A DNA stretch of 64,000 nucleotides from Ignavibacteria bacterium (GCA_016844745.1 JAERMQ010000009.1:7184-71183); one strand, 5' to 3'; positions 57 through 60,750 are shown, numbered from the stretch's first letter. A program made the numbers and translations. Notes: generated by a model not told the origin, from the sequence alone.

Positions 57-320
57 TTAAGAATAAACTACGTTCGGATTCTCGGGCATAATGGAAATGC
101 GGTAGCCAAAGTCATAATCAATATCTGCTTCGATTAATGCAGAAAAATGCAATAATTCCATTTCCCTGTCTTCGTCCATATCCGCAATAACATTAATCCA
201 GATATGGTCTGGGTCATCCGGGCTTGTAGAAAGATTTTTAAGTATTATCTCAGGATATTTATCCTTAACTTTTGCCAGAAACTCATCTATAAGTTGTTCT
301 TGTTTATGATTTATATTCAT
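57..320 (-). CDS. Small hypothetical protein (87 aa), last gene of a three-gene HEPN module
   Basis: The ORF overlaps the upstream HEPN gene by 4 bp (ATGA-type coupling). There is no NTase G-S/DxD motif, so it is not a canonical MNT. Confidence 0.4.
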   Translation of the reverse strand: MNINHKQEQLIDEFLAKVKDKYPEIILKNLSTSPDDPDHIWINVIADMDEDREMELLHFSALIEADIDYDFGYRISIMPENPNVVYS

Positions 321-682
321 GTCATTACTCCGGTTAATATTTCAATAAATTCTTTTGCTTTTTCCAAATTTTCTTTGGATTTCTTTTTATTTACTCCGCT
401 ACCATAATCTGTAAAGTTTCTTATACTCTGCATTTCGTACAAATAACTTTTATATTTAGACGGTAATATCTTTCTTCTATTGATAAATAAATCGGAAAAT
501 ATTGAATTCAATGCTTTATGGTCGATTTTCGGCTCATAACCTGATTGATAAACCGCTACCAGTGCTATATGAAATGCAGCATAATATGCCCTATTTGCAG
601 ACGCATTATATAAACCATTTTCAAATAGCATTTCTGCTGCTTTTAGATTTTCTTTTGAACGTTGATGGAAAGTTTCAATCAT
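317..682 (-). CDS. HEPN-domain protein (putative toxin/RNase component)
   Basis: 121 aa with a HEPN-like helical signature (ANRAYYAAFHIALVAV) and typical HEPN size. It is translationally coupled to the downstream small ORF. Confidence 0.55.
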   Translation of the reverse strand: MIETFHQRSKENLKAAEMLFENGLYNASANRAYYAAFHIALVAVYQSGYEPKIDHKALNSIFSDLFINRRKILPSKYKSYLYEMQSIRNFTDYGSGVNKKKSKENLEKAKEFIEILTGVMT

Positions 683-2250: not shown

Positions 2251-3900
2251 TTATCCTAACATAGGAATTTTTATGCCAAACTTTCCGGCATTTTCTTTAG
2301 CTCTTTCATAACCGGCATCGGTATGCCTGATTATACCCATCATCGGGTCATAAGTCAATACTCTTTTCAATCTAAGTTCGGCTTCTGCACTGCCGTCAGC
2401 TACTACAACCATACCTGCATGAAGCGATAATCCCATTCCGACTCCGCCGCCGTGATGGAAGGAAATCCATGATGCGCCGCCGATGGCATTCAATGCAAAA
2501 TTGAAATACACCCAGTCGGCAATAGCATCCGAGCCGTCTGCCATACCTTCGGTCTCACGATAAGGCGAAGCAACGGAACCGCAATCCAAATGGTCTCTTC
2601 CAATAACAATCGGCGCCGATACTTTGCCGGTTGCAACGAGTTCATTGAACATCAAACCTGCTTTTGCCCGCTCGCCATAGCCAAGCCAGCAGATTCTCGC
2701 AGGCAGCGCCTGATAACGAACATGCTTTTGCGCTTGAGTTATCCAGCGATGAAGCGGCTCATTATACGGAAATAATTCCATAATAGCATCATCGGTAACA
2801 CGAATATCCTCCGGGTCGCCCGATAGAGCTACCCACCGGAAAGGACCTTTGCCGTCGCAGAATAGAGGACGAATGTATGCCGGAACGAATCCTGGAAAAT
2901 CAAATGCATTCGTAACAGAATCATAATCCTTAGCTATTCCTCGTATGTTATTTCCGTAATCGAAAACAACAGAGCCACGTTTCTGAAATTCAAGCATCGC
3001 CCGAACGTGAGCGCCAATGGATTTATATGCTTTTTCAAGATATTCCGTTGGATTTGAAATTCTCAAATTATCAGCTTCATCTTTGCTAAGTCCTGCGGGA
3101 TAATATCCGTTCAGCGGGTCGTGGGCAGCAGTTTGGTCTGTTACGACGTCGGGAATAATTCCTCTAATCAATAGTTCGGGTAGAACTTCGGAAGCATTGC
3201 CAACCAATCCAATGGATAATGCAGTTTTAGTCAACTTGTGCTGCTCGACTAATTGCAGGGCATCGTCTAAAGTCTGAATCTTAACATTGCAATAACCATC
3301 ATGGATACGTTTATCAATGCGTTTTTCATCAATTTCAACTGTAATGGATACTGCACCTGCAAAATAGGCTGCAAGAGGCTGTGCGCCTCCCATTCCGCCC
3401 ATTCCGGCAGTTAATAAGAAACGTCCGGCAAGGGAGCCTCCGAAGTGGCTTCGGGCACATTCTGCAAATGTTTCATAAGTGCCTTGCAATATGCCTTGAG
3501 TGCCTATATAAATCCAGCTTCCTGCGGTCATCTGACCATACATCATCAAACCTAAACTATCCAAACGGCGGAATTCATCCCAGGTTGCCCATTTGGGGAC
3601 TAAATTGGAATTTGCGATAATTACTCTGGGCGCGGCTGTGTATGTTGGGACAACTCCGACTGGCTTGCCGGATTGAACGAGCAGTGTTTCATCTTCGTTC
3701 ATATTGGCAAGGGTATCGAGAATAGCGTCGTAACATTCCCAATTGCGTGCGGCTTTACCCAAACCGCCGTAAACTATTAAGTCTTGAGGCTTTTCGGCAT
3801 TTTCGGGGTCTAAGTTGTGTTGGAGCATACGCCAAGCGGCTTCAATCTGCCAGTTTTTGCAGGTTAGCTTGGTTCCTCTTGGTACTTTTACTTCGCGCAT
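2251..3900 (-). CDS. hutU: Urocanate hydratase
   Basis: 549 aa. The whole sequence looks like urocanase ([21 protein letters not shown]...[11 protein letters not shown]...). Confidence 0.93.
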
Positions 3901-4024
3901 GTTTTTTCCTTCTAAACTATTACAAATATAATAAAAATTTTAAATCCGACAAAACTAATCTTATTTAATATTAAAAATAATTTTTCTTGTTCAATTTCAC
4001 CTATAAAGCCTGATATAAAAGTCA

Positions 4025-4110
4025 GGAAGAATGTCATTCTGAACGCAGTGAAGAATCCAGTCCCAATGTGGCTTCTGGATTCTTCACTGCGTTCAGAATG
4101 ACATCCTTCT
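4025..4110. repeat. Long perfect inverted repeat (about 36-bp arms, atgtcattctgaacgcagtgaagaatccag, with an 11-bp loop); family A element
   Basis: Read directly. The same arms recur at 19681-19716/19851-19890 and as the outer arms of the composite elements at about 42299, 48018 and 60441. Confidence 0.85.
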
Positions 4111-4226
4111 ATATTATCGCATTATCAAGCAATCTCAACAGGAATATCTTTTGCCATCCTATCGTTACAAGCGATGGTATGGCAGGATAAACAATATTTT
4201 TTATTAAATTCGTTTATGTTCAAACT

Positions 4227-4622
4227 ATGATGAGTTTAGAGGAACATATTGAACATTGGCTAAAGACTTCAGAGAAAGACCTTGAGTCGGCATCAAATAT
4301 GTTTTCAGCCGGAATTTATGATTGGTCTTTATTTGTTGCACATCTTGCTTTGGAAAAATTACTTAAAGCGCTTTGGATTCAAGCAAATCAGCAAGCATTT
4401 CCTCCAAAAATCCATAATTTGATGAAATTAGCCGAACAAGCCGGGATTGAATTAACTGAAGAGCAAGTTGAGTTTTTTAGGCTTGTTAATCAATTTCATT
4501 TAGAGGCAAGGTATCAGGAATATAAAGATGATTTTCAAAAAATTGCAACGAAAGAATTTTCAAATCATAATCTTATAAAAATCAAGGAAGTTTGTTTATG
4601 GTTGAAGTCCCAAATAATATAA
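4227..4622 (+). CDS. HEPN-domain toxin (HepT-like) of a HEPN/MNT toxin-antitoxin pair
   Basis: 131 aa with a HEPN helical core (VAHLALEKLLKALW). It overlaps the downstream nucleotidyltransferase gene. Confidence 0.65.
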   Translation: MMSLEEHIEHWLKTSEKDLESASNMFSAGIYDWSLFVAHLALEKLLKALWIQANQQAFPPKIHNLMKLAEQAGIELTEEQVEFFRLVNQFHLEARYQEYKDDFQKIATKEFSNHNLIKIKEVCLWLKSQII

Positions 4623-4915
4623 TCGAATCAATAAAGCGATTCGCTATCGAAGCTGAAAAAAATAATATCAATATCCAGCAGGCAATATTATTTGGTAGTT
4701 ATGCCAAAGGCAATAATACTGAATGGAGCGATATTGACGTTGCAGTTGTTTCGGAAAATTTTGAAGGAATCAGGTTTTATGATAATTTGAAACTCTCAAA
4801 GCCAGTAGTGCGAACAAATATTGATATAGAAACACACCCATTCCGTCCGGAAGATTTCACCGAAGATAATCCGTTCGTAAAGGAAATATTGGAATATGGA
4901 ATCAGGATAATTTAA
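4592..4915 (+). CDS. Minimal nucleotidyltransferase (MntA-like antitoxin)
   Basis: LFGSYAKGNNTEWSDIDVAVV is the classic pol-beta NTase G-S...DxD motif. About 105 aa. Confidence 0.8.
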   Translation: MFMVEVPNNIIESIKRFAIEAEKNNINIQQAILFGSYAKGNNTEWSDIDVAVVSENFEGIRFYDNLKLSKPVVRTNIDIETHPFRPEDFTEDNPFVKEILEYGIRII

Positions 4916-4955
4916 AAAAGCAAGACATCCAATGTTTTGCAAACATTGGATGTCT
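4847..4955. repeat. Left copy of a 109-bp direct repeat (3' end of the MNT gene plus the palindrome agacatccaatgtttgcaaacattggatgtct)
   Basis: About 90% identical to 7909-8017. Includes a 14-bp-arm hairpin that probably terminates the MNT gene. Confidence 0.8.
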
Positions 4956-6643
4956 TCTCCCTTTTGTCAAAGTTTTATTATATTAGGTCATCCAATGACC
5001 GGCAGCCACCGGAAGATTTAATAACAATAAAAGAGGGAATAAAAGAGTCTATATTTTATTATAGTGATGACGAACAGAGAATAAAAATGGAATATAAAGA
5101 AAATAATGTACTTCTTTATACTAAATACTATCTGGATGGTTACGAGCTAATCCAATATCCCGATAATACTACAAAAGAACTGACATCCTTAGGCGGGGAA
5201 GCAGTTGTAGTAAAAGATAGAAATAATGTAGTCAAAACTTATTACGTTCATACCGACCAATTAGGTTCACTTCAATGCCTGACCGATGAAAACGGCGATA
5301 TTGTGCCTAATGCGGAATTCAGCTTCGACCCTTGGGGTAAAATAAGGAAAAAGGATGACTGGACCCAGAATTATTCAAATGAATCCCAACTATCAACTTT
5401 TGATATTATTGGACGAGGATTTACCGGTCACGAGCACATGCCTCAATTCGGACTTATCAATATGAACGGGAGAGTATATGACCCAATGCTCGGACAGTTT
5501 ATTCAACCCGATAATAACATTCAATTCCCAAGCTATAGTCAAAATTACAACAGGTATAGTTATTGTCTCAACAATCCGGTTAATTTCACTGACCCATCGG
5601 GAGAGGACCTTGGTCCTGTACTCACGAGTATTCTTACTGGTGGTGGTTATAATATAAGTCATTCCGTAAGTCGAATTTACAATGCTTATCATAACTTTGG
5701 AAATGATGCCGGTAATGAAGTATTGTTTCAGACAATATTTTGGACTGGGTACTCGACAATTGCCGGTATGATGTTGGGACAAAGTTTGGATTTTCTTATC
5801 AGCTCTTTTGCGAATCCAGGTATAAGTTCGAAAGCAAATGATGTTGCATCAGCGATTTCACCAAATAACCCTCCTGGTGGTTATGTATCAACTGACCAAG
5901 GATTATTGTCAACCATTAATTTTGGTCCAGGAGCTTCCGTTTCTAACGCAGCATCTAATATTGCTCCAAGACTTGCCTTATCAACTGGAGGGAAAATTGG
6001 AGCTGCTGCAGGAGCGGTAATAGGTGCTTGGGCAGTCACAAAAAGTTGGAATGCACAATATATTGCAAGTTATCGTTCTTTTGCCTCACGAAGGGCTAAA
6101 GAGTATCAAGTAGCAGGAACACCATTTACTTGCGAAGATTTAGTTTTACAGATTTTAATTGATTTTGCTAGCCAAAATCAACTACCGGTTGTATTAAATA
6201 TAAATGGTATAACTTATAACGCTGCTGATAGTCGTTGGGGGGGTGATATTAAGGAATTTAGAGATGAACTTTTTAACATTACAGCTTCATCCCATCTTCA
6301 GAATAGCGATAATACAGTTGGGATAGGATATGATGATTTACTTCCCGGAGATATGTTACTTCAAGTACTATATCCAAATGGAGTCAGCAATCATGCTCAA
6401 GAAGTAGTAGATGTAAATAAATATTTTATTGAAATAATTCAAGGAAATACTAAGAGTTCATATTTTGGATCAGGTAAACCATCTCAAAGTAATTATATAG
6501 GAACTCCTCTAAATAATTCCTATTTCAATAGGGCAAATGGCAATTTTTTTAGTGGTCGTACTAGAACATTAGAGAAATTTAATAAACTAAAACAATTTCA
6601 AGGTAAAAGATGGAATTTTGATAAATTTAATAAATGGAGATGA
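4937..6643 (+). CDS. Orphan Rhs-family C-terminal fragment: RHS core end (…DPxGE) plus a ~340-aa variable C-terminal toxin domain, with no N-terminal YD-repeat body
   Basis: YYVHTDQLGSLQ..FDPWGK..GFTGHEHMPQFGLINMNGRVYDPMLGQFIQPDN..NRYSYCLNNPVNFTDPSGE is the canonical RHS repeat-associated core terminus. The only start is a TTG inside the upstream terminator hairpin, in frame with the MNT stop, so this is probably a silent or displaced cassette. Confidence 0.7.
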   Translation: MQTLDVFSLLSKFYYIRSSNDRQPPEDLITIKEGIKESIFYYSDDEQRIKMEYKENNVLLYTKYYLDGYELIQYPDNTTKELTSLGGEAVVVKDRNNVVKTYYVHTDQLGSLQCLTDENGDIVPNAEFSFDPWGKIRKKDDWTQNYSNESQLSTFDIIGRGFTGHEHMPQFGLINMNGRVYDPMLGQFIQPDNNIQFPSYSQNYNRYSYCLNNPVNFTDPSGEDLGPVLTSILTGGGYNISHSVSRIYNAYHNFGNDAGNEVLFQTIFWTGYSTIAGMMLGQSLDFLISSFANPGISSKANDVASAISPNNPPGGYVSTDQGLLSTINFGPGASVSNAASNIAPRLALSTGGKIGAAAGAVIGAWAVTKSWNAQYIASYRSFASRRAKEYQVAGTPFTCEDLVLQILIDFASQNQLPVVLNINGITYNAADSRWGGDIKEFRDELFNITASSHLQNSDNTVGIGYDDLLPGDMLLQVLYPNGVSNHAQEVVDVNKYFIEIIQGNTKSSYFGSGKPSQSNYIGTPLNNSYFNRANGNFFSGRTRTLEKFNKLKQFQGKRWNFDKFNKWR

Positions 6644-6990
6644 TTATGAAAAATTTGAAATATTTTTATTGCTTTAAATATGTCCCTTTTATTACTTCTT
6701 TATTATATTTATTATTCTTTTTGTTTTTATATTACGGCTCTATAAGACAATTTGGGTGGTGTATTTCAAGTGATAATCCTAATTGGTTAAACTATTTTTA
6801 TAATTATTGTTTAATTTATTCAATTGAATATCATTTTATTTTTTATTATTTACCTTTGTTTTTGTTTATCATTTTTGGATTATTGAGATTAATTAAAATA
6901 AAAATTTTTCTTTATTATATAACTTTAATTTTATTATTCATATATATATTACTTTGTAATTTTTTATGGGGTTATTGGAATCCATATTAA
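6634..6990 (+). CDS. Putative immunity protein (small, very hydrophobic, AT-rich) immediately downstream of the Rhs toxin tip
   Basis: 118 aa, rich in F/L/Y/I with several predicted TM segments. It overlaps the toxin stop by 10 nt. The DNA is about 20% GC and could be a spurious AT-rich ORF. Confidence 0.3.
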   Translation: MEMIMKNLKYFYCFKYVPFITSLLYLLFFLFLYYGSIRQFGWCISSDNPNWLNYFYNYCLIYSIEYHFIFYYLPLFLFIIFGLLRLIKIKIFLYYITLILLFIYILLCNFLWGYWNPY

Positions 6991-7260
6991 TGATATTAAC
7001 AAGAATCTAATTTTTTAAAGTTATAATGAAAAGATTGAGTAATGTAGAAAATTGATTACTTTTTTATGAAAATTTTAATTTTATGCTTTAAATAAATATT
7101 TTTGCTTGATAATCTCAAAAAAACTTGATAATGAAATAATAAAAAAAGTAAAAGATCAAAAATACAACTGGAGACATTGAATATCAAAATAAATGACATT
7201 GTCATCTAAACTGTCTGGATAAGGAAGTTGAATTAAATCTTAAATATAAAAATAAAGGCT

Positions 7261-7719
7261 TTGATTATGAAAATAAAAATGAAGATATCTTTCAAAATTC
7301 TAATAGCTTTAGGATTACTCATTAGCTTAAAGCTATTTGCATACCCTGCCGTAGTTTATAACTTCGACGAAGCAGGCAACCGCATTACAAGCAGGGTTGT
7401 CAATATGAAACAGTCGATAGAAACACCGCCCGAAGAGCAAAAGGTTGCAGGGTTCAGCATAAAGGTGTATCCGAATCCTACAGCCGACATTTTAAAAGTG
7501 GAGATAGAAGGCTTGCAAAAGGATTCCAGAGTAAAAATCGAGATGTTCGACCTCAAGGGCGCAAAGCTCTACTCAAACGAGACGAATAATAACCGGTACG
7601 ACATCGACCTTTCGCAAAGGACAACCGGTGTCTATATTTTGAATATCTATATCGACGACAAGACGACTTACTGGAAGATAGTAATCTCACCTATACCATC
7701 TCTTTCAGCGATAGCATAG
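7261..7719 (+). CDS. Small secreted protein with one YD/RHS-type repeat (YNFDEAGNRITSR) and a T9SS C-terminal sorting domain
   Basis: Signal peptide present. KVYPNPTADILKVEIEG...GVYILNIYIDDKTTYWKIV is T9SS-CTD-like. The region is locally GC-richer than its flanks. Confidence 0.5.
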   Translation: MIMKIKMKISFKILIALGLLISLKLFAYPAVVYNFDEAGNRITSRVVNMKQSIETPPEEQKVAGFSIKVYPNPTADILKVEIEGLQKDSRVKIEMFDLKGAKLYSNETNNNRYDIDLSQRTTGVYILNIYIDDKTTYWKIVISPIPSLSAIA

Positions 7720-7909
7720 GAATATTGGTCTGCCTTCCATGCGATGAAAAGTTCTCATGGCTATTATAACTTTAAGTATCCATATCCCTTAATCCTACCA
7801 ATCCTAATTCAGACATTTTCCACCTTTACCATCGCTTTCAGCGTTCGCATAAGAATTATTTGCCATCCTATCGATGAAGTCGATGGTATGGCTGTAAAAA
7901 CAATGCTGC

Positions 7910-7978
7910 CCGGAGGATTTCACGGAAAATAATCCTTTCGTTAAGGAAATATTGGAATATGGGATAAGGATAATATAA
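7910..7978 (+). pseudogene. Remnant of an MNT nucleotidyltransferase C-terminus (PEDFTENNPFVKEILEYGIRII*)
   Basis: Translates to a near-identical copy of the last 22 aa of the MNT at 4592..4915, with an in-frame stop just upstream. Part of the right-hand 109-bp direct repeat (7909-8017). Confidence 0.55.
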
Positions 7979-8037
7979 TAAAACAAGACATCCAATGTTT
8001 GGCAAACATTGGATGTCTAATTTATTGCATCATTATT

Positions 8038-11000
8038 TTATTTATTTACTACAAATTTCCTGATTATCATTTCACTTTCATTCTGCAACATAATCAAATA
8101 AATACCATTTGTTATTTTGCTAAGGTCAATTTGCTTTCTATATGTGTCTTCGGTCAGATTAATGTTTTCTTCATATATGGATTCTCCAAGCAAAGTCATT
8201 AATTTTAACTTCATTTTAGAAGGATTTATTGTATTATATTCAATATTCAGGACATTTCCAGTTGGAATCGGATATATTTTTAATTTATTCGCTGTAATTT
8301 GTGTTTCAACTACATCAGTTGTAAAATAATATGGGTCGGAAAATACCGAACAGCCGTTTAAATCCGTATATTTAACTTTGTAAAAGCCTGTTTTTTCTGA
8401 CGTATAATATTGATAAACAGCATAAGTTATTAATGAATCCTTGTAATACCATTGATTACCCGTCGAATAATTCGATGCCAAATCAGTACCGCCACGCGTT
8501 ATAATCGGTTTTTCCGGTAGTTTATTGATAATTATGCTTTGCGAAGTGGAATCTTTAAAACCACTTTGTAGTATTGTTTGAACCACTTTAATCGAACCTG
8601 TTCCTGCTAGACCCCAATTGACTATAATGGAATCTTTGGTATTCGAACCGCTAATGGAGCCTCCTGTCACCGTCCAAACATTAACAGCGCCAGACTTTTT
8701 AGTAGTTTTATAATTCTCAATATCATATTCGCAAGCCGGTGATTTACCTAATATTGTAGGCTTTAATGAATTTGTAATTGTAACGTGTTGAAAAGCAGAA
8801 TCTACACAACCTGTTGCGGTAACAATCTGCAATAAATTAATTGTACCAACTCCAACGCTTCCCCATGTTACGGTTATTGAAGAATTTGTTGTAGAACCGT
8901 TGATAATGCCTCCGACTACCGACCAATTATTGGAAATACTGATATTATTTAATGTTTCATAAGTTTTCGTGCTATTTGGTAAGATAGTGAATTCCCCGGT
9001 TATTGTGGGTGTTGGTAGTTGATTTACTGTAACGGGGATTTCGATTGAGTCCGCACATCCTGTTGATGAAATAGTTTGAATTAACTTGACATTACCTATT
9101 CCGGCATTTCCCCATTTTATTACAACAGAATTTATTGTTGATGAGCCTAAAATTGCACCATTAGTGACTCTCCATCGATTAACTGTTCCCGCTTGAGTAT
9201 CCGTCTTATATTGGGCAACACTTTTAGCACATAAAGAAGTATCTCCGGTAATTTTTGGAACTGGCAGGGGATTGATCATTACTTCAAAATTAGTGGAATC
9301 TTTGCAGCCTTCGTTACTTTTTTGAATTAGGATTACTGTCCCTGAACTGGCTGATGACCATAATATATTGACAAAAGTACCTGATGTCGAACCTTGAATT
9401 GTTCCTCCTATAACATTCCATGTACAAGAAGTAACTGTGGTTATTGTGTTAGATGTAAAAGAGGAAATACTATTCGCACAAACTTTTGTAAGTCCGGTTA
9501 TAACAGGAACAGGCAAAGGACTGATTGTAATTTGCTTAGATGTAGAATCACGGCACCCGGTTAAATTATTTGATTGAATTAAATATATTGTGCCGCTGCG
9601 GGCATTATTCCATAGAATATTTACAAAAGTTGAAGATGCACTGCCCTGTATTGTTCCCTGTATTACCGACCATAGACAGGAAACTCCTACCGATGATGTA
9701 GCGCTATATAAACTTATATTACCGGTACACACAGATGTGCTTCCCGTTATATTCGGCTTTGGTAATGGATTTATTATTATGGCTGTTTTTATTGAATCCC
9801 TGCAATTATTATAAATATTGGTTTGAGTAAGGGTAATAGTGCCGCTTGGAGAACTTCCCCAAGTAACATTAATAAAATTTGAAGAAGTGGAACCGGTGAT
9901 TGTACCGCTTGATACATACCATTGATTTAAAACATCAACAGGTGTAGAGCATGAGTAGATGTATGGATTCGTTTCGCAGACCGATGTCTGACCATTAATT
10001 GAAGGTGATGGCTTAGAAAGAATAGTAATATTACTTCCATTGTCCGAACCTGTAACAATTGGGGAGGAAGAAACAACTCGAATCCTATAACCCGAACCTA
10101 TTGGTGTATTTGTTGGTATCGCTACAGAAATAGTCCCGGAGCTGGTTCCTACAACAGAACCAATCATCACAGGACTACCGAAACTGCCGGATGAATTTGA
10201 TAATTGAACGGTGAAGGTATTGGATGAATTATATGTTCCAGTGATTGTAAATGGAATTACTAAATAATCTCCGGAACAAAAACTACTACCGCTTAAATTT
10301 CCGATATTGATGGATGATACATCCATAAGTCCTATTGTATGATTACCTCCGGACTTAATTTCAGACCATTTAGAACTATTGCCTATCCGAACAGGTGAGC
10401 TTTTACTTGTTGTTGTACCGTCGCCTAATTGTCCAATATTGTTCCAGCCAAAAGCCCACAAAGTACCATCATTTTTGATACTAAATGTACTATTAAAACC
10501 ACATGAAACATTTGCCCAATTTGTACTACTTCCGATTTGAAAAGGGGAATGTTTTTCAGTTATCGTACCATCACCTAATTGTCCATTATTATTTAATCCC
10601 CAAGACCATATAGAGCCGTCACTTTTTTTGGCAATTGAGTGGTAGCTACCGCAGGAAACCAATACCCAATTTGTATCACTACCGATTTGTATTGGGGAAT
10701 TTTTTTGTATAGTTGTTCCATCACCTAATTGACCTGAACCATTACTACCCCATGCCCATAATGTGCCATCGTTTTTAACACCAAGGGAAAAATCAAGTCC
10801 GCCGGAAACAGAGACCCAATTTGTATCGGCTTCGATTTGAACCGGGTAATTTATATCAATGGTTGTACCATCTCCTAGTTGTCCGAAACTATTTAATCCC
10901 CAAGCCCATAAAGAGCCATTACTCTTTATGGCAAGAGAATGGTCGCCACCGCAGGAAACTTTTACCCAATCAGTACTGCTTCCGATTTGCACTGGATTGG

Positions 11001-11445
11001 TTTTCGTTGTAGTAGTGCCATCTCCAAGCTGCCCATCGATATTTAATCCCCAAGCCCATAAAGTGCCATCGTTTTTAATTGCATGAGTATGTGCACTTCC
11101 ACATGATATTGATAGCCAATTTGTTCCGGAACCGATTTGTACCGGGGAAATCTTGTTTGTTGTGCTGCCATCACCTAACTGTCCGTAGTCATTAATTCCC
11201 CATGCCCACAACGAACCGTCACTTTTAATAGCAATGGTAAATTCTTCACCGCAAGAGGATTTAATCCAATTTGTGGCAGCGCCGATTTGCGTTGGCGAGT
11301 ATTTTACATCTGTTGTACCGTCGCCCAACTGTCCATAGTTATTAGCGCCCCATCCAAACAAAGCATAATTATTTTGCGAAAAAGCAAAGAAAGGGATTAG
11401 ACATAATATTATAAGAAATGAAAAGAAAGTTGTCAAGATTTTCAT
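8038..11445 (-). CDS. Large T9SS-secreted protein: N-terminal RCC1-like beta-propeller repeats, about 7 tandem ~80-aa Ig/PKD-like repeats, and a T9SS C-terminal domain
   Basis: Repeated YGQLGDGTT...S.G..H..A motifs (RCC1). Repeated NPLP.P.ITG...W.V.GG.I.GS...V.WG..G.G.I.L.Q....GC.DS modules. C-terminal KIYPIPTGNVLNIEY...GIYLIMLQ sorting domain. Signal peptide present. Confidence 0.75.
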   Translation of the reverse strand: MKILTTFFSFLIILCLIPFFAFSQNNYALFGWGANNYGQLGDGTTDVKYSPTQIGAATNWIKSSCGEEFTIAIKSDGSLWAWGINDYGQLGDGSTTNKISPVQIGSGTNWLSISCGSAHTHAIKNDGTLWAWGLNIDGQLGDGTTTTKTNPVQIGSSTDWVKVSCGGDHSLAIKSNGSLWAWGLNSFGQLGDGTTIDINYPVQIEADTNWVSVSGGLDFSLGVKNDGTLWAWGSNGSGQLGDGTTIQKNSPIQIGSDTNWVLVSCGSYHSIAKKSDGSIWSWGLNNNGQLGDGTITEKHSPFQIGSSTNWANVSCGFNSTFSIKNDGTLWAFGWNNIGQLGDGTTTSKSSPVRIGNSSKWSEIKSGGNHTIGLMDVSSINIGNLSGSSFCSGDYLVIPFTITGTYNSSNTFTVQLSNSSGSFGSPVMIGSVVGTSSGTISVAIPTNTPIGSGYRIRVVSSSPIVTGSDNGSNITILSKPSPSINGQTSVCETNPYIYSCSTPVDVLNQWYVSSGTITGSTSSNFINVTWGSSPSGTITLTQTNIYNNCRDSIKTAIIINPLPKPNITGSTSVCTGNISLYSATSSVGVSCLWSVIQGTIQGSASSTFVNILWNNARSGTIYLIQSNNLTGCRDSTSKQITISPLPVPVITGLTKVCANSISSFTSNTITTVTSCTWNVIGGTIQGSTSGTFVNILWSSASSGTVILIQKSNEGCKDSTNFEVMINPLPVPKITGDTSLCAKSVAQYKTDTQAGTVNRWRVTNGAILGSSTINSVVIKWGNAGIGNVKLIQTISSTGCADSIEIPVTVNQLPTPTITGEFTILPNSTKTYETLNNISISNNWSVVGGIINGSTTNSSITVTWGSVGVGTINLLQIVTATGCVDSAFQHVTITNSLKPTILGKSPACEYDIENYKTTKKSGAVNVWTVTGGSISGSNTKDSIIVNWGLAGTGSIKVVQTILQSGFKDSTSQSIIINKLPEKPIITRGGTDLASNYSTGNQWYYKDSLITYAVYQYYTSEKTGFYKVKYTDLNGCSVFSDPYYFTTDVVETQITANKLKIYPIPTGNVLNIEYNTINPSKMKLKLMTLLGESIYEENINLTEDTYRKQIDLSKITNGIYLIMLQNESEMIIRKFVVNK

Positions 11446-11502
11446 AAGATACTCCTGATGATATGAATTAGTATTAAGATTCCTTTATTTTAAATTAATA
11501 TT

Positions 11503-11600
11503 GTCTGAACCACTGATTAATCTGATTAAATGATTTCATTGATTATTAAATATACTTTATCTGAGTAATCCATAAATCAGTTTAATCAGTGGTTCAGACG
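11503..11600. repeat. Family C palindromic element (~98 bp, 18-bp terminal inverted repeats gtctgaaccactgattaa), copy 1
   Basis: Read directly. A second full copy lies at 12449-12546, with partial copies at 12270-12302 and 43613-43660. Confidence 0.8.
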
Positions 11601-11617
11601 ATTTGCTACAATTCAAA

Positions 11618-11827
11618 TTATAATGCTATTTTAGAAATGTAGTTATTAATCTTTCTTACATTTCTAATGATAATTTTTTTATCAGTATCCTTCTTTAATT
11701 GCTCAAGCAAATCTTCGAGCATAAACTCAATTCTGGTTTTCTCCCTTGCAAGTGCATAATAAGCCCTGAACTCAGGATTTTGCATCTGCTGTTCCAGATA
11801 TTCATCATGTTTAGTTTTTCTGTTCAT
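11618..11827 (-). CDS. HigA-like antitoxin (putative 'addiction module antidote' type small protein)
   Basis: 69 aa with a NPEFRAYYALAREKTRIEF motif that resembles the antidote-protein family. It lies immediately downstream of a Gp49/HigB-like toxin gene. Confidence 0.5.
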   Translation of the reverse strand: MNRKTKHDEYLEQQMQNPEFRAYYALAREKTRIEFMLEDLLEQLKKDTDKKIIIRNVRKINNYISKIAL

Positions 11828-11872
11828 TTCTTTTATTATTTATATAAAACTTTTTGAATTTTATTGCCTTTT

Positions 11873-12202
11873 CTAATTCACTTCTGGGTGTTTCTTCTGT
11901 TTTTTTAAAAATCCATTTGTAAATATAACCATTTTTTCTCTTTGAAAAAAGTATAATGACCTTGGTATTCTATTTGAATGCCGTACTCTTAATTCAAATA
12001 TACCCTCTTTCAAAAATTTTGATAATTTATTTGATAAATTAATATTATTACTTAGTCTATCTTTCAGTTCCTCTATAGCTGAGATAATTTCTGCTCGTTC
12101 CTGAAGGGTCAAAGAATCTAAAAATTCCTTAAAAGGAATCTTCCCACTCTCAAGTTGATAATAATCTATATCAAAATATTCTACATTAACATAAAATCTA
12201 AT
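11873..12202 (-). CDS. RelE/HigB-like toxin of the phage Gp49-like family; the frame is open to 12202 but has no canonical start codon
   Basis: GIFELRVRHSNRIPRSLYFF...VIFTNGFLKKQKKHP matches the Gp49-like toxin pattern (..ELR....R..YF....ll.GF.KKtqK.P). The annotated Met gives only 79 aa, but the in-frame upstream extension (…SGKIPFKEFLDSLTLQERAEII) is also family-like. No ATG/GTG/TTG occurs in that extension, so there may be a frameshift or a non-canonical start. Confidence 0.55.
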   Translation of the reverse strand: MRFYVNVEYFDIDYYQLESGKIPFKEFLDSLTLQERAEIISAIEELKDRLSNNINLSNKLSKFLKEGIFELRVRHSNRIPRSLYFFQREKMVIFTNGFLKKQKKHPEVN

Positions 12203-12448
12203 TTAAGGTTAATAAAAAATATACAAAACATTCAAACAAATTCAAAGTATCTTTTTCTTTCAACCATGCAATCCTTAAATTCGTTTAATCAGTGGTTCTG
12301 ATGACTTTTTAACTTCTCATCTCAAGTTGTATTTTTATCTCAAATCGCTGATTGTAAGCCACTTGTTTTAACTTCTTAAAGATATTTTAATTGAATTAAT
12401 TTTAATAGCATAAATTTAACCAAGATTTTTTAATAATCCAAATGAAAA

Positions 12449-12546
12449 TTGTCTGAACCACTGATTAATCTGATTAAATGATTTCATTGATTAGAAAAAA
12501 ACTAATCTGTGTAATCCTTTAATCCGTATAATCTGTGATTCGGACA
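12449..12546. repeat. Family C palindromic element, copy 2 (right inverted repeat degenerate)
   Basis: About 90% identical to 11503-11600 over the left ~45 bp. The two copies bracket the HigB/HigA module. Confidence 0.75.
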
Positions 12547-12695
12547 CCTAATCCACTTTTGCAGAAGTGTATTTTTTTCGTAAATTGCTTAGTTATGGTA
12601 TATTAGTAAGGATAATTTTGAAAACGAGAAAAAAGAAGAAGCAAATTTAAATTTCAATAAAAAAAAATAATGATTTATATTAAATTAGGAGAATA

Positions 12696-14126
12696 ATGAA
12701 CCCAGAAAACCCTGCACAGAAAAGCGGCTTCAGAAGCCTGCCGAAAACTTATTGGATTGCAATTATTTTTGAATTTTTCGAACGAGGCTCATACTACGGT
12801 ATGATGAGCATCCTTTCGGTTTACCTTACAGACCAATTGAATTTTTCAAAGGAAGGAGTTGGTGTAATTAAAGGTACAATCCAACCACTTCTCTACTTCT
12901 TACCGATAATCAGCGGAGCCGTTGCTGATAAGCTCGGTTATAGAAAAATGCTTATGGTGGCATTTACACTGCTTTCAGGTGGATATTTCCTTACTTTCGG
13001 TTCCGATTCTTATGTTACTGTATTCCTTGCACTTGTTGTAATGGGAATTGGTGCAGGGTCATTCAAGCCTGTCATTTCAGGTACTATTGCAAAGTTGACA
13101 GATGAAAAGACGAATACCCTGGGTTTTGGAATTTTTTACTGGTCGATTAATCTGGGTGCTTTTCTTTTCCCAATGTTTTTAGTACCTTATTTAAAGTCCT
13201 TTTCCTGGAGCTATGTTATTCTTGCATCTTCTATAACAACCGGATTAATGCTGCTCCCAACGATATTCCTTTATAAGGAACCGCCGAGAGCAGAAATTAA
13301 AAAAGAGCCACTGCTCGTTATCATCAAGGATGTTTTCTCGAAAATGCTCATGGTTATTAAAGATTGGCGTTATATTTTATTTATTTTTATTTATTCCGGC
13401 TTTTGGATTCTTTATTTCCAGATGTTCGATTCGGTGCTATGGTACGTAAATTTATTCGTTGACCCATCAGCGCTCGAAAATTTTGTATTTAATACAACCG
13501 GAATTACCTGGCGTTTCGGTGTTGAGCACGTTACAGTAATTAATGCATTAACGATAATTCTGCTGCAACTTGTCGTATCCTCAATCGTAAGCAAAACAAA
13601 ACCGCTACCGACAATAATAACAGGTATTACCTTGGGTAGCATTGGTATGGGGATTTTGGCAATAAATACTAATATCTGGATTTTCATTATTGGAATAACT
13701 ATTTTTTCAATAGGTGAAATGACCGCACATCCGAAGTATTTATCATATCTTGCACTAATAGCTCCGCCTGACAAAAAGGCGACATATACAGGCTTCGGAT
13801 TTTTATATGGCTTCTTTGGTTCTTTTGTAGGGGGTTATTTGGGAGCATTTCTGTATGTTAGGTTTGTAGATAATCCTATGATTGAATTCATACGGGAAAC
13901 ATTAATTGTCAAATCATCCAATATTGTACTTGCCCATAACGTCAAAATAGGTGAAGCGCTTCAGGCTGCATATAAAATCGGGTTAACTAAAGCCGAAGTT
14001 GCTTTACATGCAAATACATCCGAACTATGGCTGATATTTAGCGGTATAGGAGTTTTGACAATAATCGGATTATTGCTATATCAAAAATTAATTGCTGCGC
14101 CCGGGATAAGGGAGAATCGGAAATAG
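12696..14126 (+). CDS. POT/PTR2-family proton-dependent oligopeptide transporter (MFS)
   Basis: The FFERGSYYGM signature (ExxERFxYYG) is present. 476 aa, multi-TM. Confidence 0.85.
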   Translation: MNPENPAQKSGFRSLPKTYWIAIIFEFFERGSYYGMMSILSVYLTDQLNFSKEGVGVIKGTIQPLLYFLPIISGAVADKLGYRKMLMVAFTLLSGGYFLTFGSDSYVTVFLALVVMGIGAGSFKPVISGTIAKLTDEKTNTLGFGIFYWSINLGAFLFPMFLVPYLKSFSWSYVILASSITTGLMLLPTIFLYKEPPRAEIKKEPLLVIIKDVFSKMLMVIKDWRYILFIFIYSGFWILYFQMFDSVLWYVNLFVDPSALENFVFNTTGITWRFGVEHVTVINALTIILLQLVVSSIVSKTKPLPTIITGITLGSIGMGILAINTNIWIFIIGITIFSIGEMTAHPKYLSYLALIAPPDKKATYTGFGFLYGFFGSFVGGYLGAFLYVRFVDNPMIEFIRETLIVKSSNIVLAHNVKIGEALQAAYKIGLTKAEVALHANTSELWLIFSGIGVLTIIGLLLYQKLIAAPGIRENRK

Positions 14127-14141
14127 ATGAATTAAAACGAA

Positions 14142-14224
14142 CCAAGAGAAACCCCCTAACCCCCTTTAAAAAAGGGGGAAATTCTATCCCCCTTTTTTAA
14201 AGGGGGTTAGGGGGTTTCTCTTGG
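14142..14224. repeat. GC-rich nested 'core' palindrome (ccaagagaaaccccctaaccccc ... gggggttagggggtttctcttgg)
   Basis: Perfect 23-bp outer arms enclosing two ccccc-ttt/aaa-ggggg sub-hairpins. It stands out against roughly 35% GC background. Sits between the POT stop and the next gene start. Confidence 0.85.
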
Positions 14225-14263
14225 TTAAAAGGATGTGAGTATATAACAATCAATAATTTAATA

Positions 14264-18847: not shown

Positions 18848-18878
18848 GGTTAGTTGAAAGTTCTTAAAGTTTGTAAAG

Positions 18879-19016
18879 TTGAGTCCACTCTAAAAAGCAT
18901 TTTTAGTGATAATTACATTCCAAAATCGGAATTTTGGAATGAGAAATATCAAGAACTTGCTAATTCCAAAGTTGTACTTTGGAATTAAATTTTTGGTTTT
19001 TAGATAGGACTCAATG
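18879..19016. repeat. Family B ~135-bp element with terminal inverted repeats (gagtccactctaaaaag…) and two internal hairpins (attccaaaa-ccgg-aatttttggaat; attccaaagt-tgt-actttggaat), copy 1
   Basis: About 90% identical to 34035-34173. Both copies start about 15-30 bp after the stop codon of a plus-strand gene. Confidence 0.8.
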
Positions 19017-19064
19017 TTCGTAAAGGGGAAAAGGGAAGAGGAAAAGGGAAAAGTATGAAGAAGT

Positions 19065-19096
19065 ACTTTCCGAAAGTTTCCCTAATTTCGGAAAGT
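19065..19096. repeat. 13-6-13 palindrome copy 3 (inverted orientation, 1-nt deletion), followed by ttttt and so terminator-like on the + strand
   Basis: actttccgaaagt-ttccctaa-tttcggaaagt-ttttt, 30 bp upstream of the thioredoxin-like gene. Confidence 0.7.
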
Positions 19097-19126
19097 TTTT
19101 ACCATCATCAGAAAGTCTAGAGAAAA

Positions 19127-19636
19127 ATGAAAAAATATAAAACAATACCATTCTACGTAATAATTTGTATTATTATGTTACAACCATCTCTTGCCTTTTG
19201 TTCCGATACAACAATCACCAAGCCTGTAATAGTTGGTAGCTTCACTTGGGAACAATGGAAGGAAGCCGCTCTCTGGAAGGATTATTCAGCTTCGGATTAC
19301 AAGATTGATTCGTTATCAATAAGCAATTTGAAAGAAAAAATCAAATCGAAAAATCCGGAATTTATCATGTTTTCCGGCTCCTGGTGCGGCGATTCGGAAT
19401 CTGAAGTCCCGAAATTCTATAAATTAATGATGATTTGCAGTTATAGCATTGAAAAAATAATACTAATTGGACTCGACCGGAATAAAGCCGAATCCGGAGG
19501 TTCACATATTCAATACAACATCACTAATGTTCCTACTTTAATCGTCATTGTTAATGGTAAAGAAGTTGGAAGAATAACAGAATTCCCCACGAAAAGCTGG
19601 GAAGAAGATATATTAAAGATATTGAGTGATAAATAA
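19127..19636 (+). CDS. Thioredoxin-fold protein (monothiol WCGDS variant), secreted
   Basis: Signal peptide present. FSGSWCGDSESEVP shows a thioredoxin-like active site with CxxS instead of CxxC. Confidence 0.6.
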   Translation: MKKYKTIPFYVIICIIMLQPSLAFCSDTTITKPVIVGSFTWEQWKEAALWKDYSASDYKIDSLSISNLKEKIKSKNPEFIMFSGSWCGDSESEVPKFYKLMMICSYSIEKIILIGLDRNKAESGGSHIQYNITNVPTLIVIVNGKEVGRITEFPTKSWEEDILKILSDK

Positions 19637-19680
19637 AATTGTATATAACCTTATTGTACATTGAAACTGTATTAGAATCC

Positions 19681-19890
19681 AAGAAGAATGTCATTCTGAA
19701 CGAAGTGAAGAATCTTCTACAACCTAAGATGGATGTCTTTGAGGTAAAGAATGAATCATGATTATTCAAGAAAAGCATCAATTCTAATTCTTATAGAAAG
19801 GATTAAATAATTTTGGAAAATCAAAAAAAACTTTTCAGATTTTGCAAGAAGATTCTTCACTGCGTTCAGAATGACATTCTTCTTTCTTTT
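19681..19890. repeat. Family A element with a 135-bp internal spacer (arms aagaagaatgtcattctgaacgaagtgaagaatcttc / agaagattcttcactgcgttcagaatgacattcttctt)
   Basis: Read directly. The arms are about 90% identical to the 4025-4110 palindrome. Confidence 0.8.
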
Positions 19891-19973
19891 AACACCAATT
19901 CGATTTCCTGAATGAATTAGAATATTAATATTTTTTTAAGACTAATTTTTTGAAATAAATACTTAGGAACAAT

Positions 19974-48290: not shown

Positions 48291-48480
48291 TGACTTTTTA
48301 CACAACCTCATTCACAGGAATGACTATTTATATAGTATTGCTCTTTTAAATCTGTTCAAATAACTACCGTTTCATTATTTTATTGAAACGGCAGTTTTTA
48401 TAATTTGGCATTATAAAATATTTTTTTTAATTTTGTAGTCTGTATAGTTTACAAAACTATTTGATATGAAATTATTTCAT

Positions 48481-60736: not shown

Positions 60737-60750
60737 TTTTTTGATACGAA

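What the first reader, a model, noticed from the sequence alone, without database searches (positions are those of the whole stretch)
4847..8017. A ~3 kb cassette bounded by 109-bp direct repeats carries an orphan Rhs C-terminal toxin tip, next to a HEPN/MNT pair
The 3' end of the MntA-like gene plus its terminator palindrome (4847-4955) is repeated at about 90% identity at 7909-8017. The second copy still translates to PEDFTENNPFVKEILEYGIRII*, the MNT C-terminus.

Between the repeats lie three genes:
- An Rhs fragment that starts inside the RHS core (…VYDPMLGQFIQPDN…NPVNFTDPSGE) and continues into a ~340-aa C-terminal domain with no obvious family.
- A very AT-rich (about 20% GC) hydrophobic 118-aa ORF in the usual immunity position.
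- A GC-richer mini-gene combining one YD repeat with a T9SS sorting domain.

The Rhs fragment has no ATG, only a TTG inside the upstream hairpin, and no YD-repeat body. It therefore looks like a silent, displaced toxin/immunity cassette of the kind that recombines into a full-length rhs gene, inserted here by homologous recombination between two MNT 3' ends. Pairing it with a YD/T9SS-CTD mini-protein suggests Rhs-type toxins in this lineage may be exported through T9SS, which would be unusual.
Basis: partly seen in the sequence, partly recalled or inferred. Interest (0 to 1): 0.7.

Follow-up and report, generated by a model that had tools for sequence, protein, structure and literature searches.

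The report
Stranded Rhs toxin cassette remnant
A leftover piece of a bacterial toxin locus (a probable cell-wall-cutting toxin tip, its protective membrane protein and a damaged export-tag gene) sits between two copies of a toxin-antitoxin module in an Ignavibacteria genome; the relic is fairly ordinary, but its export-tag gene belongs to a widespread family that links Rhs toxins to type IX secretion, a link nobody has tested.

Summary
Positions 4847-4955 and 7910-8018 are 89.9% identical (E 1e-36), and the genes between them are as described.

Four points change the picture:
- **Second repeat copy.** It is a whole HEPN/MNT operon, from promoter palindrome to terminator, that has lost 644 bp. 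Seven of its 8 coding differences are synonymous, so it diverged as a working gene.
- **Immunity gene.** In 19 of 21 homologous toxin genes a 92-144-aa multi-pass membrane ORF follows directly, so the 118-aa ORF is the likely immunity gene.
- **Mini-gene.** It belongs to a family of roughly 140-aa proteins (signal peptide, one YD hairpin, T9SS sorting domain). In all 14 sequence-distinct loci examined, the member sits immediately upstream of a large same-strand ORF, which is a signal-peptide-bearing SpvB/FG-GAP/Rhs protein of 1,600-2,200 aa wherever enough sequence is available.

Here the Rhs body is absent, the mini-gene's 3' end is disrupted, and no Rhs elsewhere is more than 50% identical to the fragment's shell. 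I read this as a stranded relic rather than an active reserve cassette. The T9SS-Rhs neighbourhood was already noted in Apibacter in 2021. Interest is moderate.

The parts
4109..4195 (+). R1: the 5' region of the HEPN/MNT operon. It contains an imperfect palindrome (4150-4195), which I infer to be a promoter/operator.
   Evidence: Repeated at 7859-7904 (83%) and partly at 7724-7748. The hairpin folds with z -4.2. It lies 32-77 nt upstream of the HEPN ATG.
4227..4622 (+). HEPN-domain protein (131 aa), the predicted RNase toxin of the TA pair.
   Evidence: PF05168, E 5e-21. R-x5-H motif RLVNQFH at residue 85.
4598..4915 (+). Minimal nucleotidyltransferase (MNT, 105 aa). It overlaps the HEPN gene by 25 nt.
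   Evidence: PF01909 and PF18765 at about 45 bits. NCBIfam MntA scores 39.9 bits, below its cut-off of 60. GS-x10-DxD motif present.
4847..4955 (+). Direct repeat, copy 1: the last 23 MNT codons plus the terminator hairpin.
   Evidence: 89.9% identical to 7910-8018, E 1e-36.
4922..4956 (.). Terminator-like hairpin C1: 16-bp perfect stem, 3-nt loop. The TTG 'start' of the Rhs ORF lies inside it.
   Evidence: -23.2 kcal/mol, z -5.9.
4937..6643 (+). Orphan Rhs C-terminal module: 568 aa from the TTG, 518 aa from the ATG at 5087.
- about 4980-5605: last part of the YD shell plus the RHS core.
- 5591-5605: DPSGE.
- 5606-5989: Gly-rich hydrophobic linker.
- 5990-6640: toxin domain.
   Evidence: TIGR03696 covers aa 131-222. 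The precomputed Pfam hit for P0001 is PF25023. tblastn aligns full-length Rhs residues about 1540-1776 to 5003-5644. No signal peptide and no N-terminal domain are present.
5990..6640 (+). NlpC/P60-fold Cys-His hydrolase toxin domain. Candidate catalytic residues are Cys399, His486, and Asp401 or Gln502, in ORF numbering.
6634..6990 (+). Candidate immunity gene: 118 aa, a hydrophobic multi-pass membrane protein, 17.6% GC. It overlaps the toxin stop codon.
   Evidence: 19 of 21 homologous toxin ORFs in 20 genome loci are followed, within -35 to +15 nt, by a 92-144-aa ORF, nearly all with 3-5 predicted TM segments. phmmer hits to L009 (5.6e-5) and L010. Many partners, and this ORF, end in a short proline-aromatic motif.
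6991..7260 (.). AT-rich spacer (19.6% GC) between the immunity gene and the mini-gene.
   Evidence: No conserved feature found.
7261..7719 (+). Mini-gene, probable start at 7279: signal peptide, one YD hairpin, linker, T9SS type A sorting domain. It carries an aberrant tail of about 10 aa (SPIPSLSAIA) encoded by repeat R2.
   Evidence: PF18962 at 54.4 bits and TIGR04183 at 46.6 bits. Family alignment. 113 of 119 relatives end 3 residues after WK[IVL], whereas this one runs 12 residues past it. Its motif is YNFDEAGNR against YAYDAAGNR in 91 of 119 relatives. AF2: sorting domain pLDDT above 90; YD hairpin and tail low.
7679..7770 (+). R2: a degenerate partial copy of the TA operon's 5' region, fused in frame to the end of the mini-gene.
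   Evidence: Positions 7688-7748 match 7821-7878 at 77%. Three-way alignment.
7811..7904 (+). R3: the 5' region of the second (decayed) TA operon, including the palindrome at 7859-7904.
7910..8018 (+). Direct repeat, copy 2: MNT 3' remnant (7910-7978, PEDFTENNPFVKEILEYGIRII*) plus hairpin C2 (7985-8018). C2 probably also terminates the convergent RCC1/T9SS-cargo gene that ends at 8038.
   Evidence: The equivalent of 4196-4839 (644 bp) is missing between 7904 and 7910.

Best explanation
The segment is a stranded remnant of an Rhs polymorphic-toxin locus of the SpvB/FG-GAP/Rhs type found with T9SS-tagged partners in the Bacteroidota-Ignavibacteria group. It lies between two diverged copies of a HEPN/MNT toxin-antitoxin operon.

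**What the sequence shows**
- An orphan Rhs module: the last roughly 200 aa of the shell, then the core, a Gly-rich linker, and an NlpC/P60-fold Cys-His hydrolase.
- A small multi-pass membrane partner whose position is conserved across homologous loci.
- A copy of the mini-gene (signal peptide, one YD hairpin, T9SS sorting domain). Elsewhere this gene always sits directly in front of a large same-strand ORF, a full-length Rhs wherever that ORF can be identified. Here its last codons are replaced by TA-operon 5' sequence, and no Rhs body follows.
- A second TA operon reduced to its promoter palindrome plus 3' end and terminator.

**What I infer**
- Two once-functional, diverged TA operons flanked the cassette. 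The order TA-cassette-TA fits a single crossover between a resident TA operon and an incoming DNA molecule that carried its own. An old tandem duplication fits as well. The redundant right-hand copy then lost 644 bp.
- The toxin fragment has no signal peptide, shell or N-terminal domain, so it cannot be exported. It sits behind a strong terminator and is probably silent or inert.
- The immunity gene is the part most likely still useful, protecting against the same toxin type delivered by relatives.
- The intact TA operon acts as an addiction module and supplies homology for recombination.
For: - **Repeats and mosaic:**
- **Divergence of copy 2:** 7 synonymous to 1 non-synonymous difference in 23 codons, P about 7e-5.
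- **Domains:**
- **Toxin fold:**
- **Immunity synteny:** 19 of 21 toxin ORFs.
- **Mini-gene family:** 1573 proteins at E <= 0.001 (an upper bound, because the profile contains the generic sorting domain); the best 120 listed, the window's own protein among them, are 126-171 aa. 118 of 119 carry the YD motif at about residue 25, and 113 of 119 share the canonical C-terminus.
- **Mini-gene position:** immediately upstream of a large same-strand ORF in every locus examined. Loci are L005-7, L030-L038 and L040-47, which amount to 14 sequence-distinct loci from about 9 lineages. The ORF is a 1,600-2,200-aa Rhs, or an Rhs cut off by the contig end, in 8 of them; in the 6 shortest contigs only 85-228 aa of it are visible, and in one of those (L034) that stretch matches an Rhs N-terminus.
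- **No Rhs body:** no other Rhs-body homology in the window.
- **No close partner:** the best non-self match to the shell/core is 45-50% identical over the region, even though this MAG's proteins and two assemblies carrying this locus are in that database.
- **Typical orphan boundary:**
- **Terminator hairpin directly upstream:**
Against: - The toxin ORF is uninterrupted and keeps every invariant residue. Decay is therefore recent, or the module is still under selection.
- The MAG is incomplete, so a full-length rhs could exist on DNA that was never assembled.
- The mini-gene's divergent YD motif could reflect phylum-level divergence rather than decay. All close family members found are from Bacteroidota.
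- There are no expression data, and an ATG at 5087 could give a 518-aa product.
- The order of events (crossover versus tandem duplication) cannot be resolved.
- The extra partial copy R2 and the 72 nt between R2 and R3 are unexplained.
Confidence: 0.65

Rival explanations
1. The fragment is a silent, displaced toxin/immunity cassette kept as a reserve. It recombines through its shell/core homology into a full-length rhs gene elsewhere in the same genome, swapping the toxin tip.
For: - The ORF is intact and the catalytic residues are conserved.
- The 5' boundary and length are typical of orphan modules.
- Orphan arrays downstream of full-length genes are the norm in relatives.
- Tip polymorphism is visible among Proteiniphilum strains.
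Against: - No rhs body lies in the 64 kb.
- The closest shell/core anywhere is 45-50% identical over the region, far below what homologous recombination needs. The database includes this MAG's proteins and assemblies carrying this locus.
- The cassette is not downstream of a main gene.
Confidence: 0.2
2. This is a functional mini-system. The 518-aa product is expressed by read-through from the TA operon or from its own ATG. It works together with the neighbouring YD/T9SS mini-protein, whose YD hairpin docks on the partial shell and carries it out through the T9SS.
For: - The two genes are adjacent on the same strand.
- T9SS genes (PorU-like, PorZ-like) lie in the window.
- In the AF2 model the YD hairpin is not packed against the sorting domain.
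- MNT and the Rhs ORF share a reading frame.
Against: - T9SS cargo must first cross the inner membrane through Sec. The fragment has no signal peptide, whereas the full-length partners inspected all do.
- In canonical loci the mini-gene precedes its partner rather than following it.
- The mini-gene's C-terminus is extended by about 10 aa beyond the nearly invariant end.
- A strong terminator precedes the fragment.
Confidence: 0.07
3. This is an assembly artefact. The MAG contig is chimeric or collapsed at the repeats, and the cassette is not really located between hutU and the RCC1 gene.
For: Independent contigs end at or inside the repeats: L002 ends at 4847, L003 spans 4880-8013, and L029 starts at 7993.
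Against: - L001 crosses the TA/Rhs junction. L003 crosses Rhs, immunity gene, mini-gene, R3 and C2.
- L029 carries the copy-2-specific loop base next to the RCC1 gene.
- The two copies differ at about 10% of positions, so a collapse is unlikely.
Confidence: 0.03

Closest known systems
Orphan ('dissociated tip') Rhs-CT/immunity modules of Enterobacteria and of 'Ca. Ornithobacterium hominis'. The source is PMC6421346, which cites Jackson et al. 2009; see also Poole et al. 2011, PMC3150448.
   Same: - A partial shell/core plus a variable C-terminal toxin, with a small immunity gene immediately downstream.
- No N-terminal delivery domain.
- Typical module size.
   Different: - It is not located downstream of a main rhs gene.
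- No homologous main gene is detectable.
- It is bracketed by two HEPN/MNT operons.
- The host is an Ignavibacteria MAG.
SpvB/TcdB-type Rhs genes next to T9SS type A sorting-domain genes in Apibacter (Steele and Moran 2021, PMC8125069)
   Same: The gene neighbourhood is the same: a T9SS-tagged small protein beside an Rhs toxin. Those authors proposed a T9SS link but did not test it.
   Different: - Here only the small gene survives, with a disrupted 3' end.
- This work adds that the small protein is a defined family of roughly 140 aa, with a single near-invariant YAYDAAGNR hairpin at the mature N-terminus.
- It also adds that the gene sits strictly immediately upstream of signal-peptide-bearing Rhs proteins.
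T6SS peptidoglycan amidase effectors Tae1-4 with Tai immunity proteins, and NlpC/P60 or CHAP cell-wall hydrolases
   Same: - Papain-like NlpC/P60 fold with a Cys-His pair.
- A periplasmic cell-wall target is the likeliest.
   Different: - It is carried on an Rhs scaffold rather than being a free T6SS effector.
- It passes no Pfam threshold.
- Its partner is a multi-pass membrane protein. From my own knowledge, Tai proteins are soluble periplasmic proteins. A membrane-associated substrate therefore cannot be excluded.
HepT/MntA (HEPN/MNT) type VII toxin-antitoxin systems
   Same: - HEPN with an R-x5-H motif and MNT with a GS...DxD motif.
- The two genes overlap.
   Different: - The MNT scores below the NCBIfam MntA equivalog cut-off (39.9 against 60).
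- The gene order is HEPN first.
- Activity is untested.

Membership tests
Rhs / YD-repeat polymorphic toxin | RHS repeat-associated core domain with a DPxG-type junction ahead of the toxin | tested here: met
   TIGR03696 scores 65 bits against a cut-off of 32.5. DPSGE is at aa 219-223.
Rhs / YD-repeat polymorphic toxin | A complete YD-repeat shell plus an N-terminal delivery domain | tested here: not met
   Only the last roughly 200 aa of the shell are present, aligning to residues about 1540-1776 of 2,000-aa relatives. There is no signal peptide, SpvB or FG-GAP region.
Displaced/orphan Rhs-CT cassette (recombination reserve) | A core/shell tract highly similar to a full-length rhs in the same genome | tested here: not met
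   The best non-self hit is 45-50% identical over the region. There is none in the window. Caveat: the MAG is incomplete.
Displaced/orphan Rhs-CT cassette (recombination reserve) | A cognate immunity gene immediately downstream | tested here: met
   A small, nearly always multi-TM ORF occupies this position after 19 of 21 homologous toxin ORFs.
Displaced/orphan Rhs-CT cassette (recombination reserve) | Transcriptionally or translationally silent | not testable with these tools
   A terminator hairpin lies directly upstream. An ATG at 5087 exists. There are no expression data.
NlpC/P60 (papain-like) hydrolase | The fold, with a Cys at a helix N-terminus and a downstream His | tested here: met
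NlpC/P60 (papain-like) hydrolase | A match to the Pfam NLPC_P60, CHAP or Amidase_6 models | tested here: not met
   The window protein has no hit. Of 52 relatives, 15 hit Amidase_6 and 8 hit CHAP, only weakly (best E about 1e-4).
NlpC/P60 (papain-like) hydrolase | Peptidoglycan-cleaving activity | not testable with these tools
   This is inferred from the fold alone.
T9SS type A cargo | An N-terminal signal peptide plus a Por_Secre_tail domain | tested here: met
   PF18962 scores 54.4 bits (cut-off 27) and TIGR04183 scores 46.6 bits (cut-off 23). The hydrophobic N-terminus is modelled as a helix over residues 3-20.
T9SS type A cargo | The sorting domain forms the extreme C-terminus | tested here: not met
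   12 residues follow WKI, against 3 in 113 of 119 relatives. The tail is encoded by repeat R2.
T9SS type A cargo | T9SS machinery in the genome | tested here: met
   A PorU-like C25 peptidase (55624-59658) and a protein with the PorZ N-terminal propeller (43720-45999) lie in the window.
YD-hairpin/T9SS mini-protein family (partner of SpvB/FG-GAP/Rhs) | About 140 aa with a YAYDAAGNR-type motif directly after the signal peptide | tested here: inconclusive
   The size and architecture fit, and the profile score is 166 bits. The motif, however, is YNFDEAGNR, with 3 changes in a near-invariant stretch.
YD-hairpin/T9SS mini-protein family (partner of SpvB/FG-GAP/Rhs) | Immediately upstream of a full-length, signal-peptide-bearing Rhs gene | tested here: not met
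   TA-operon remnants and a convergent RCC1 gene follow it. No Rhs N-terminus is found in the window.
HepT/MntA type VII toxin-antitoxin | HEPN with an Rx4-6H motif, adjacent to an MNT with GSx9-11DxD | tested here: met
HepT/MntA type VII toxin-antitoxin | The MntA equivalog model threshold | tested here: not met
   39.9 bits against a cut-off of 60.

The most novel reading that the evidence does not exclude
The roughly 140-aa mini-proteins may be dedicated T9SS adaptors and surface anchors for Rhs toxins across the Bacteroidota-Ignavibacteria group.

The proposed mechanism has four steps:
1. The Rhs cocoon reaches the periplasm through its own Sec signal peptide.
2. The mini-protein's single N-terminal YD hairpin adds onto the open edge of the Rhs beta-spiral.
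3. The mini-protein's sorting domain takes the complex through the T9SS.
4. After sorting-domain cleavage, the roughly 50-residue stub is lipid-anchored and displays the toxin on the cell surface.

That would be a T9SS-dependent, contact-dependent killing system. The window holds a decayed example together with a previously unclassified NlpC/P60-type toxin and membrane-immunity pair.
Probability: 0.3. Interest if true: 0.75.

Novelty: new member of a known kind. Interest (0 to 1): 0.38.

Why it matters
**The locus itself.** It is a modest example of how polymorphic-toxin loci decay and how toxin-antitoxin operons can bracket, and perhaps mobilise or stabilise, such cassettes.

**Toxin-immunity pair.** The analysis assigns a fold and a probable immunity partner to a toxin family of about 200 sequence clusters that no Pfam model captures. 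Its membrane-embedded partner is unusual for a cell-wall hydrolase.

**The T9SS question.** The mini-gene family sharpens an open question. It is large, it is tightly conserved (one YD hairpin plus a T9SS sorting domain), and it is always found directly upstream of signal-peptide-bearing Rhs genes. That makes the proposal that Rhs toxins leave Bacteroidota-type cells through the T9SS directly testable. How these Rhs proteins cross the outer membrane is not known in the literature I could search.

Tried and rejected
- **Single-sequence search with the mini-protein.** It found only itself. A profile of eight members was needed.
- **Genome locus search with the 52-sequence toxin alignment.** It was repeated with 8 closer sequences.
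- **Rfam scan of 3800-8200.** It returned only spurious sub-threshold miRNA hits on the hairpins.
- **Sigma-70 promoter scan.** It found no more sites than in shuffled sequence. It is probably unsuited to this phylum.
- **HMM built from the downstream membrane ORFs against the 118-aa ORF.** The score was weak (E 0.054, though better than all 200 shuffles). The immunity assignment therefore rests on conserved position plus two pairwise hits.
- **Tests for strain polymorphism.** Exact-protein look-ups of MNT and RCC1 returned only short contigs that end in the repeats. This is inconclusive.
- **Rejected model: the TA operon replaced the first roughly 1,560 codons of a resident full-length rhs.** This would explain both junctions in one event. 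However, the fragment's 5' end coincides with the usual orphan-module boundary, so it was probably already an orphan.
- **Integron-like attC interpretation of the hairpins.** I rejected this because the repeat includes MNT coding sequence and the stems are perfect.
- **Literature searches.** I found no experimental study of the mini-protein family.

Full report
**Source and setting.** The window's proteins are identical to those of a 72-kb contig of a metagenome-assembled 'Ignavibacteria bacterium' (locus tags HW421_...). The region lies between hutU (2251-3900, minus strand) and a convergent RCC1-repeat T9SS cargo gene (8038-11445, minus strand). The window also encodes a PorU-like C25 peptidase and a PorZ-like protein, so the organism has a T9SS.

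**1. Observation.** The direct repeat is real. Positions 4847-4955 and 7910-8018 are 89.9% identical over 109 nt (E 1.2e-36). Copy 2 still encodes PEDFTENNPFVKEILEYGIRII*. Each copy ends in a 15-16-bp perfect hairpin that is terminator-like on both strands. The gene content matches the description:
- HEPN and MNT.
- An Rhs fragment with the TIGR03696 core at aa 131-222 and DPSGE at aa 219-223.
- A 118-aa hydrophobic ORF at 17.6% GC.
- A 40%-GC mini-gene with a T9SS type A sorting domain.

One correction applies. The fragment begins about 100 aa before the core, in the last part of the YD shell.

**2. The right-hand repeat is a decayed second TA operon.**
- Directly left of copy 2, positions 7859-7904 repeat the palindrome that lies 32-77 nt upstream of the HEPN start (4150-4195; 83% identical; no chance matches in 100 shuffles).
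- Positions 7811-8018 therefore equal the TA operon from its 5' region to its terminator, minus the equivalent of 4196-4839 (644 bp).
- Of the 8 differences in the 23 shared codons, 7 are synonymous (P about 7e-5 under neutrality). Copy 2 therefore diverged while it was a functional MNT gene, and the deletion came later.
- A third, degenerate partial copy of the same 5' region (7679-7770) is fused in frame to the end of the mini-gene. I cannot explain this extra copy or the 72 nt that follow it.

**3. The toxin.**
- The last roughly 205 residues (nt 5990-6640) have 199 homologous clusters in 1.8 billion representatives. The domain is always at the C-terminus of proteins from 113 to 3,172 aa, many of them Rhs proteins.
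- Cys, Asp, His and Gln-Gly are invariant in 52 sequences.
- The AlphaFold model is confident (pLDDT 94.1).
- No Pfam model reaches threshold.
- Between DPSGE and this domain lie about 130 residues rich in Gly and hydrophobic residues. A comparable stretch follows the core of the 2,047-aa relative in L005.

**4. The immunity gene.**
- In 20 genome loci holding the toxin domain, 19 of 21 toxin ORFs are followed, within -35 to +15 nt, by a 92-144-aa ORF on the same strand, nearly all with 3-5 predicted TM segments. The loci come from Ignavibacteriota, Bacteroidota and two spirochaetes.
- The 118-aa ORF matches the partners in L009 (E 5.6e-5) and L010.
- Like many of the partners, it ends in a short proline-aromatic motif (NPY here; SPF, KPY, SPW, TPW and NPY elsewhere).
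- The assignment rests mainly on conserved position. A profile of the partners scores the ORF only weakly (E 0.054).

**5. The Rhs fragment is a standard orphan module, but a stranded one.**
- Its N-terminal third matches hundreds of 350-1,000-aa 'RHS repeat-associated' proteins from Bacteroidales, Lentimicrobiaceae and similar MAGs. These carry varied tips such as CHAP, lysozyme, M23, NlpC/P60 and nuclease-type domains.
- In 58 of 119 of them the alignment starts within the first 120 aa, and their projected starts have a median of -8 aa relative to this ORF's start.
- In relatives such modules follow a full-length gene (L005-7, L040-42).
- Here there is no Rhs body in the 64 kb.
- The nearest shell/core anywhere is 45-50% identical over the region (56% over a shorter stretch). 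That database contains this MAG's proteins and two assemblies that carry this locus.

**6. The mini-gene.**
- A profile search finds 1573 proteins at E <= 0.001. This is an upper bound on the family, because the profile includes the generic sorting domain. The best 120 listed, which include the window's own protein, are 126-171 aa and carry PF18962, and the named ones come from Prevotella and Proteiniphilum.
- In 118 of 119 relatives a Y-x-Y-D-x-x-G-N-R motif (YAYDAAGNR in 91) sits at about residue 25, right after the signal peptide. In 113 of 119 the protein ends three residues after WK[IVL].
- I examined L005-7, L030-L038 and L040-47, which amount to 14 sequence-distinct loci from about 9 lineages. 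In every one the gene lies between 22 nt of overlap and 184 nt upstream of a large same-strand ORF.
- In 8 of those loci the ORF is a signal-peptide-bearing SpvB/FG-GAP/Rhs protein of 1,635-2,209 aa, or one cut off by the contig end. In the 6 shortest contigs only 85-228 aa are visible. Of those 6, the visible stretch in L034 matches the N-termini of the full-length Rhs proteins.
- An Ignavibacteria relative that carries the same toxin domain (L021) has a 355-aa protein with a weak sorting-domain hit in that position.
- The window's copy deviates in three ways. Its motif is YNFDEAGNR, its C-terminus runs 12 residues past WKI into the TA-derived repeat, and nothing Rhs-like follows.
- In its AlphaFold model the sorting domain is confident (pLDDT above 90). 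The YD hairpin, linker and tail are not.

**7. History (inferred).** The order TA operon, orphan module, immunity gene, mini-gene, decayed TA operon is what a single crossover would produce between a resident TA operon and an incoming molecule carrying a diverged TA operon plus the cassette. An old tandem duplication with both TA copies kept functional for a long time fits equally well. I rejected the alternative that the TA operon replaced the 5' part of a resident rhs, because the fragment's boundary is the usual orphan boundary. Contigs from other assemblies end at or inside the repeats. This may hint at heterogeneity in the population but proves nothing.

**8. Function (inferred).**
- The fragment lacks a signal peptide and most of the shell, and it follows a strong terminator. 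Export is implausible and the toxin is probably silent or harmless in the cytoplasm.
- The immunity gene could still protect against the same toxin delivered by relatives.
- The intact HEPN/MNT pair has the R-x5-H and GS...DxD motifs. It is a plausible addiction module, although its MNT scores below the MntA equivalog cut-off.

**9. Comparison with the literature.**
- Orphan Rhs tips are well known (PMC6421346, which cites Jackson 2009; PMC3150448).
- Rhs genes with SpvB/TcdB N-termini next to T9SS type A sorting-domain genes were noted in Apibacter, with a proposed but untested T9SS link (PMC8125069).
- T9SS-associated polymorphic toxins of another class (TANFOR) have been described (PMC7073777).
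- I found no experimental work on the mini-protein family.

**Verdict.** The locus is a new member of a known kind, an orphan Rhs toxin/immunity relic. It comes with a newly assigned toxin fold and immunity type, and with a decayed copy of a conserved, uncharacterised T9SS-tagged partner gene.

Noticed in passing
window 4016-4110; also 19680-19714, 19851-19891, 48231-48298, 60679-60737: A hairpin with 35-nt arms (97% complementary) between hutU and the TA operon is a multi-copy element in the window (80-97% identical copies). It looks like a REP or MITE-type repeat.
   Followed up: partly
window 57-682 (-) and 11618-12112 (-): More toxin-antitoxin-like pairs flank the region. One is a second HEPN protein (317-682) with an 87-aa partner that has no family. 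The other is a Gp49/HigB-like toxin (11873-12112) with a 69-aa partner. The first 12 kb of the window is rich in TA modules.
   Followed up: partly
window 43720-45999 (-), 55624-59658 (-), 23883-25676 (-), 8038-11445 (-): T9SS components (PorZ-like, PorU-like C25 peptidase) and further T9SS cargo lie in the same window. The cargo includes a beta-lactamase/PKD protein and an RCC1-repeat protein.
   Followed up: partly
window 4913-4939: MNT and the Rhs ORF are in the same reading frame, separated by a single TAA and 21 nt. This is probably coincidence (one chance in three), but stop-codon read-through would give a fusion protein.
   Followed up: no
L005 614-3420; L040 7720-10429: Canonical mini-gene/Rhs operons carry two more conserved upstream genes. 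One encodes a 550-590-aa protein (TPR in L005). The other encodes a 126-128-aa DUF3244 protein, which has a fold related to T9SS sorting domains. Neither is present in the window.
   Followed up: partly
L040-L043 (Proteiniphilum saccharofermentans and relatives), 10001-20429: An identical mini-protein is followed by Rhs proteins of 2190, 2209 and 2201 aa with different downstream genes. This is strain-level toxin-tip polymorphism at one locus.
   Followed up: no
L010 3933-19640: An orphan array in another MAG holds several Rhs tips, the same toxin/immunity pair, and a toxin fragment with a second immunity copy. It also contains a HEPN/MNT pair (18967-19640), so TA modules inside Rhs arrays may recur. 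The MAG is labelled Hyphomicrobiales, but the gene content looks FCB-like.
   Followed up: no
L016 10001-10941 and 16540-17861: A tandem duplication of about 6.9 kb carries the toxin domain, its membrane partner and the flanking genes. One copy is the tip of a 2,515-aa protein and the other is a 343-aa orphan.
   Followed up: no
window 4150-4195 vs 7859-7904: The two copies of the TA-upstream palindrome differ next to the loop in a way that preserves pairing (U-G/U-A in one, A-U/U-G in the other). This suggests selection on the hairpin, as an operator or as an RNA structure.
   Followed up: no
L002 (3967-4847), L003 (4880-8013), L029 (from 7993): Contigs from independent assemblies stop exactly at or inside the two repeat copies, although the copies differ at about 10% of positions. 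This may point to recombinant variants in the population.
   Followed up: partly
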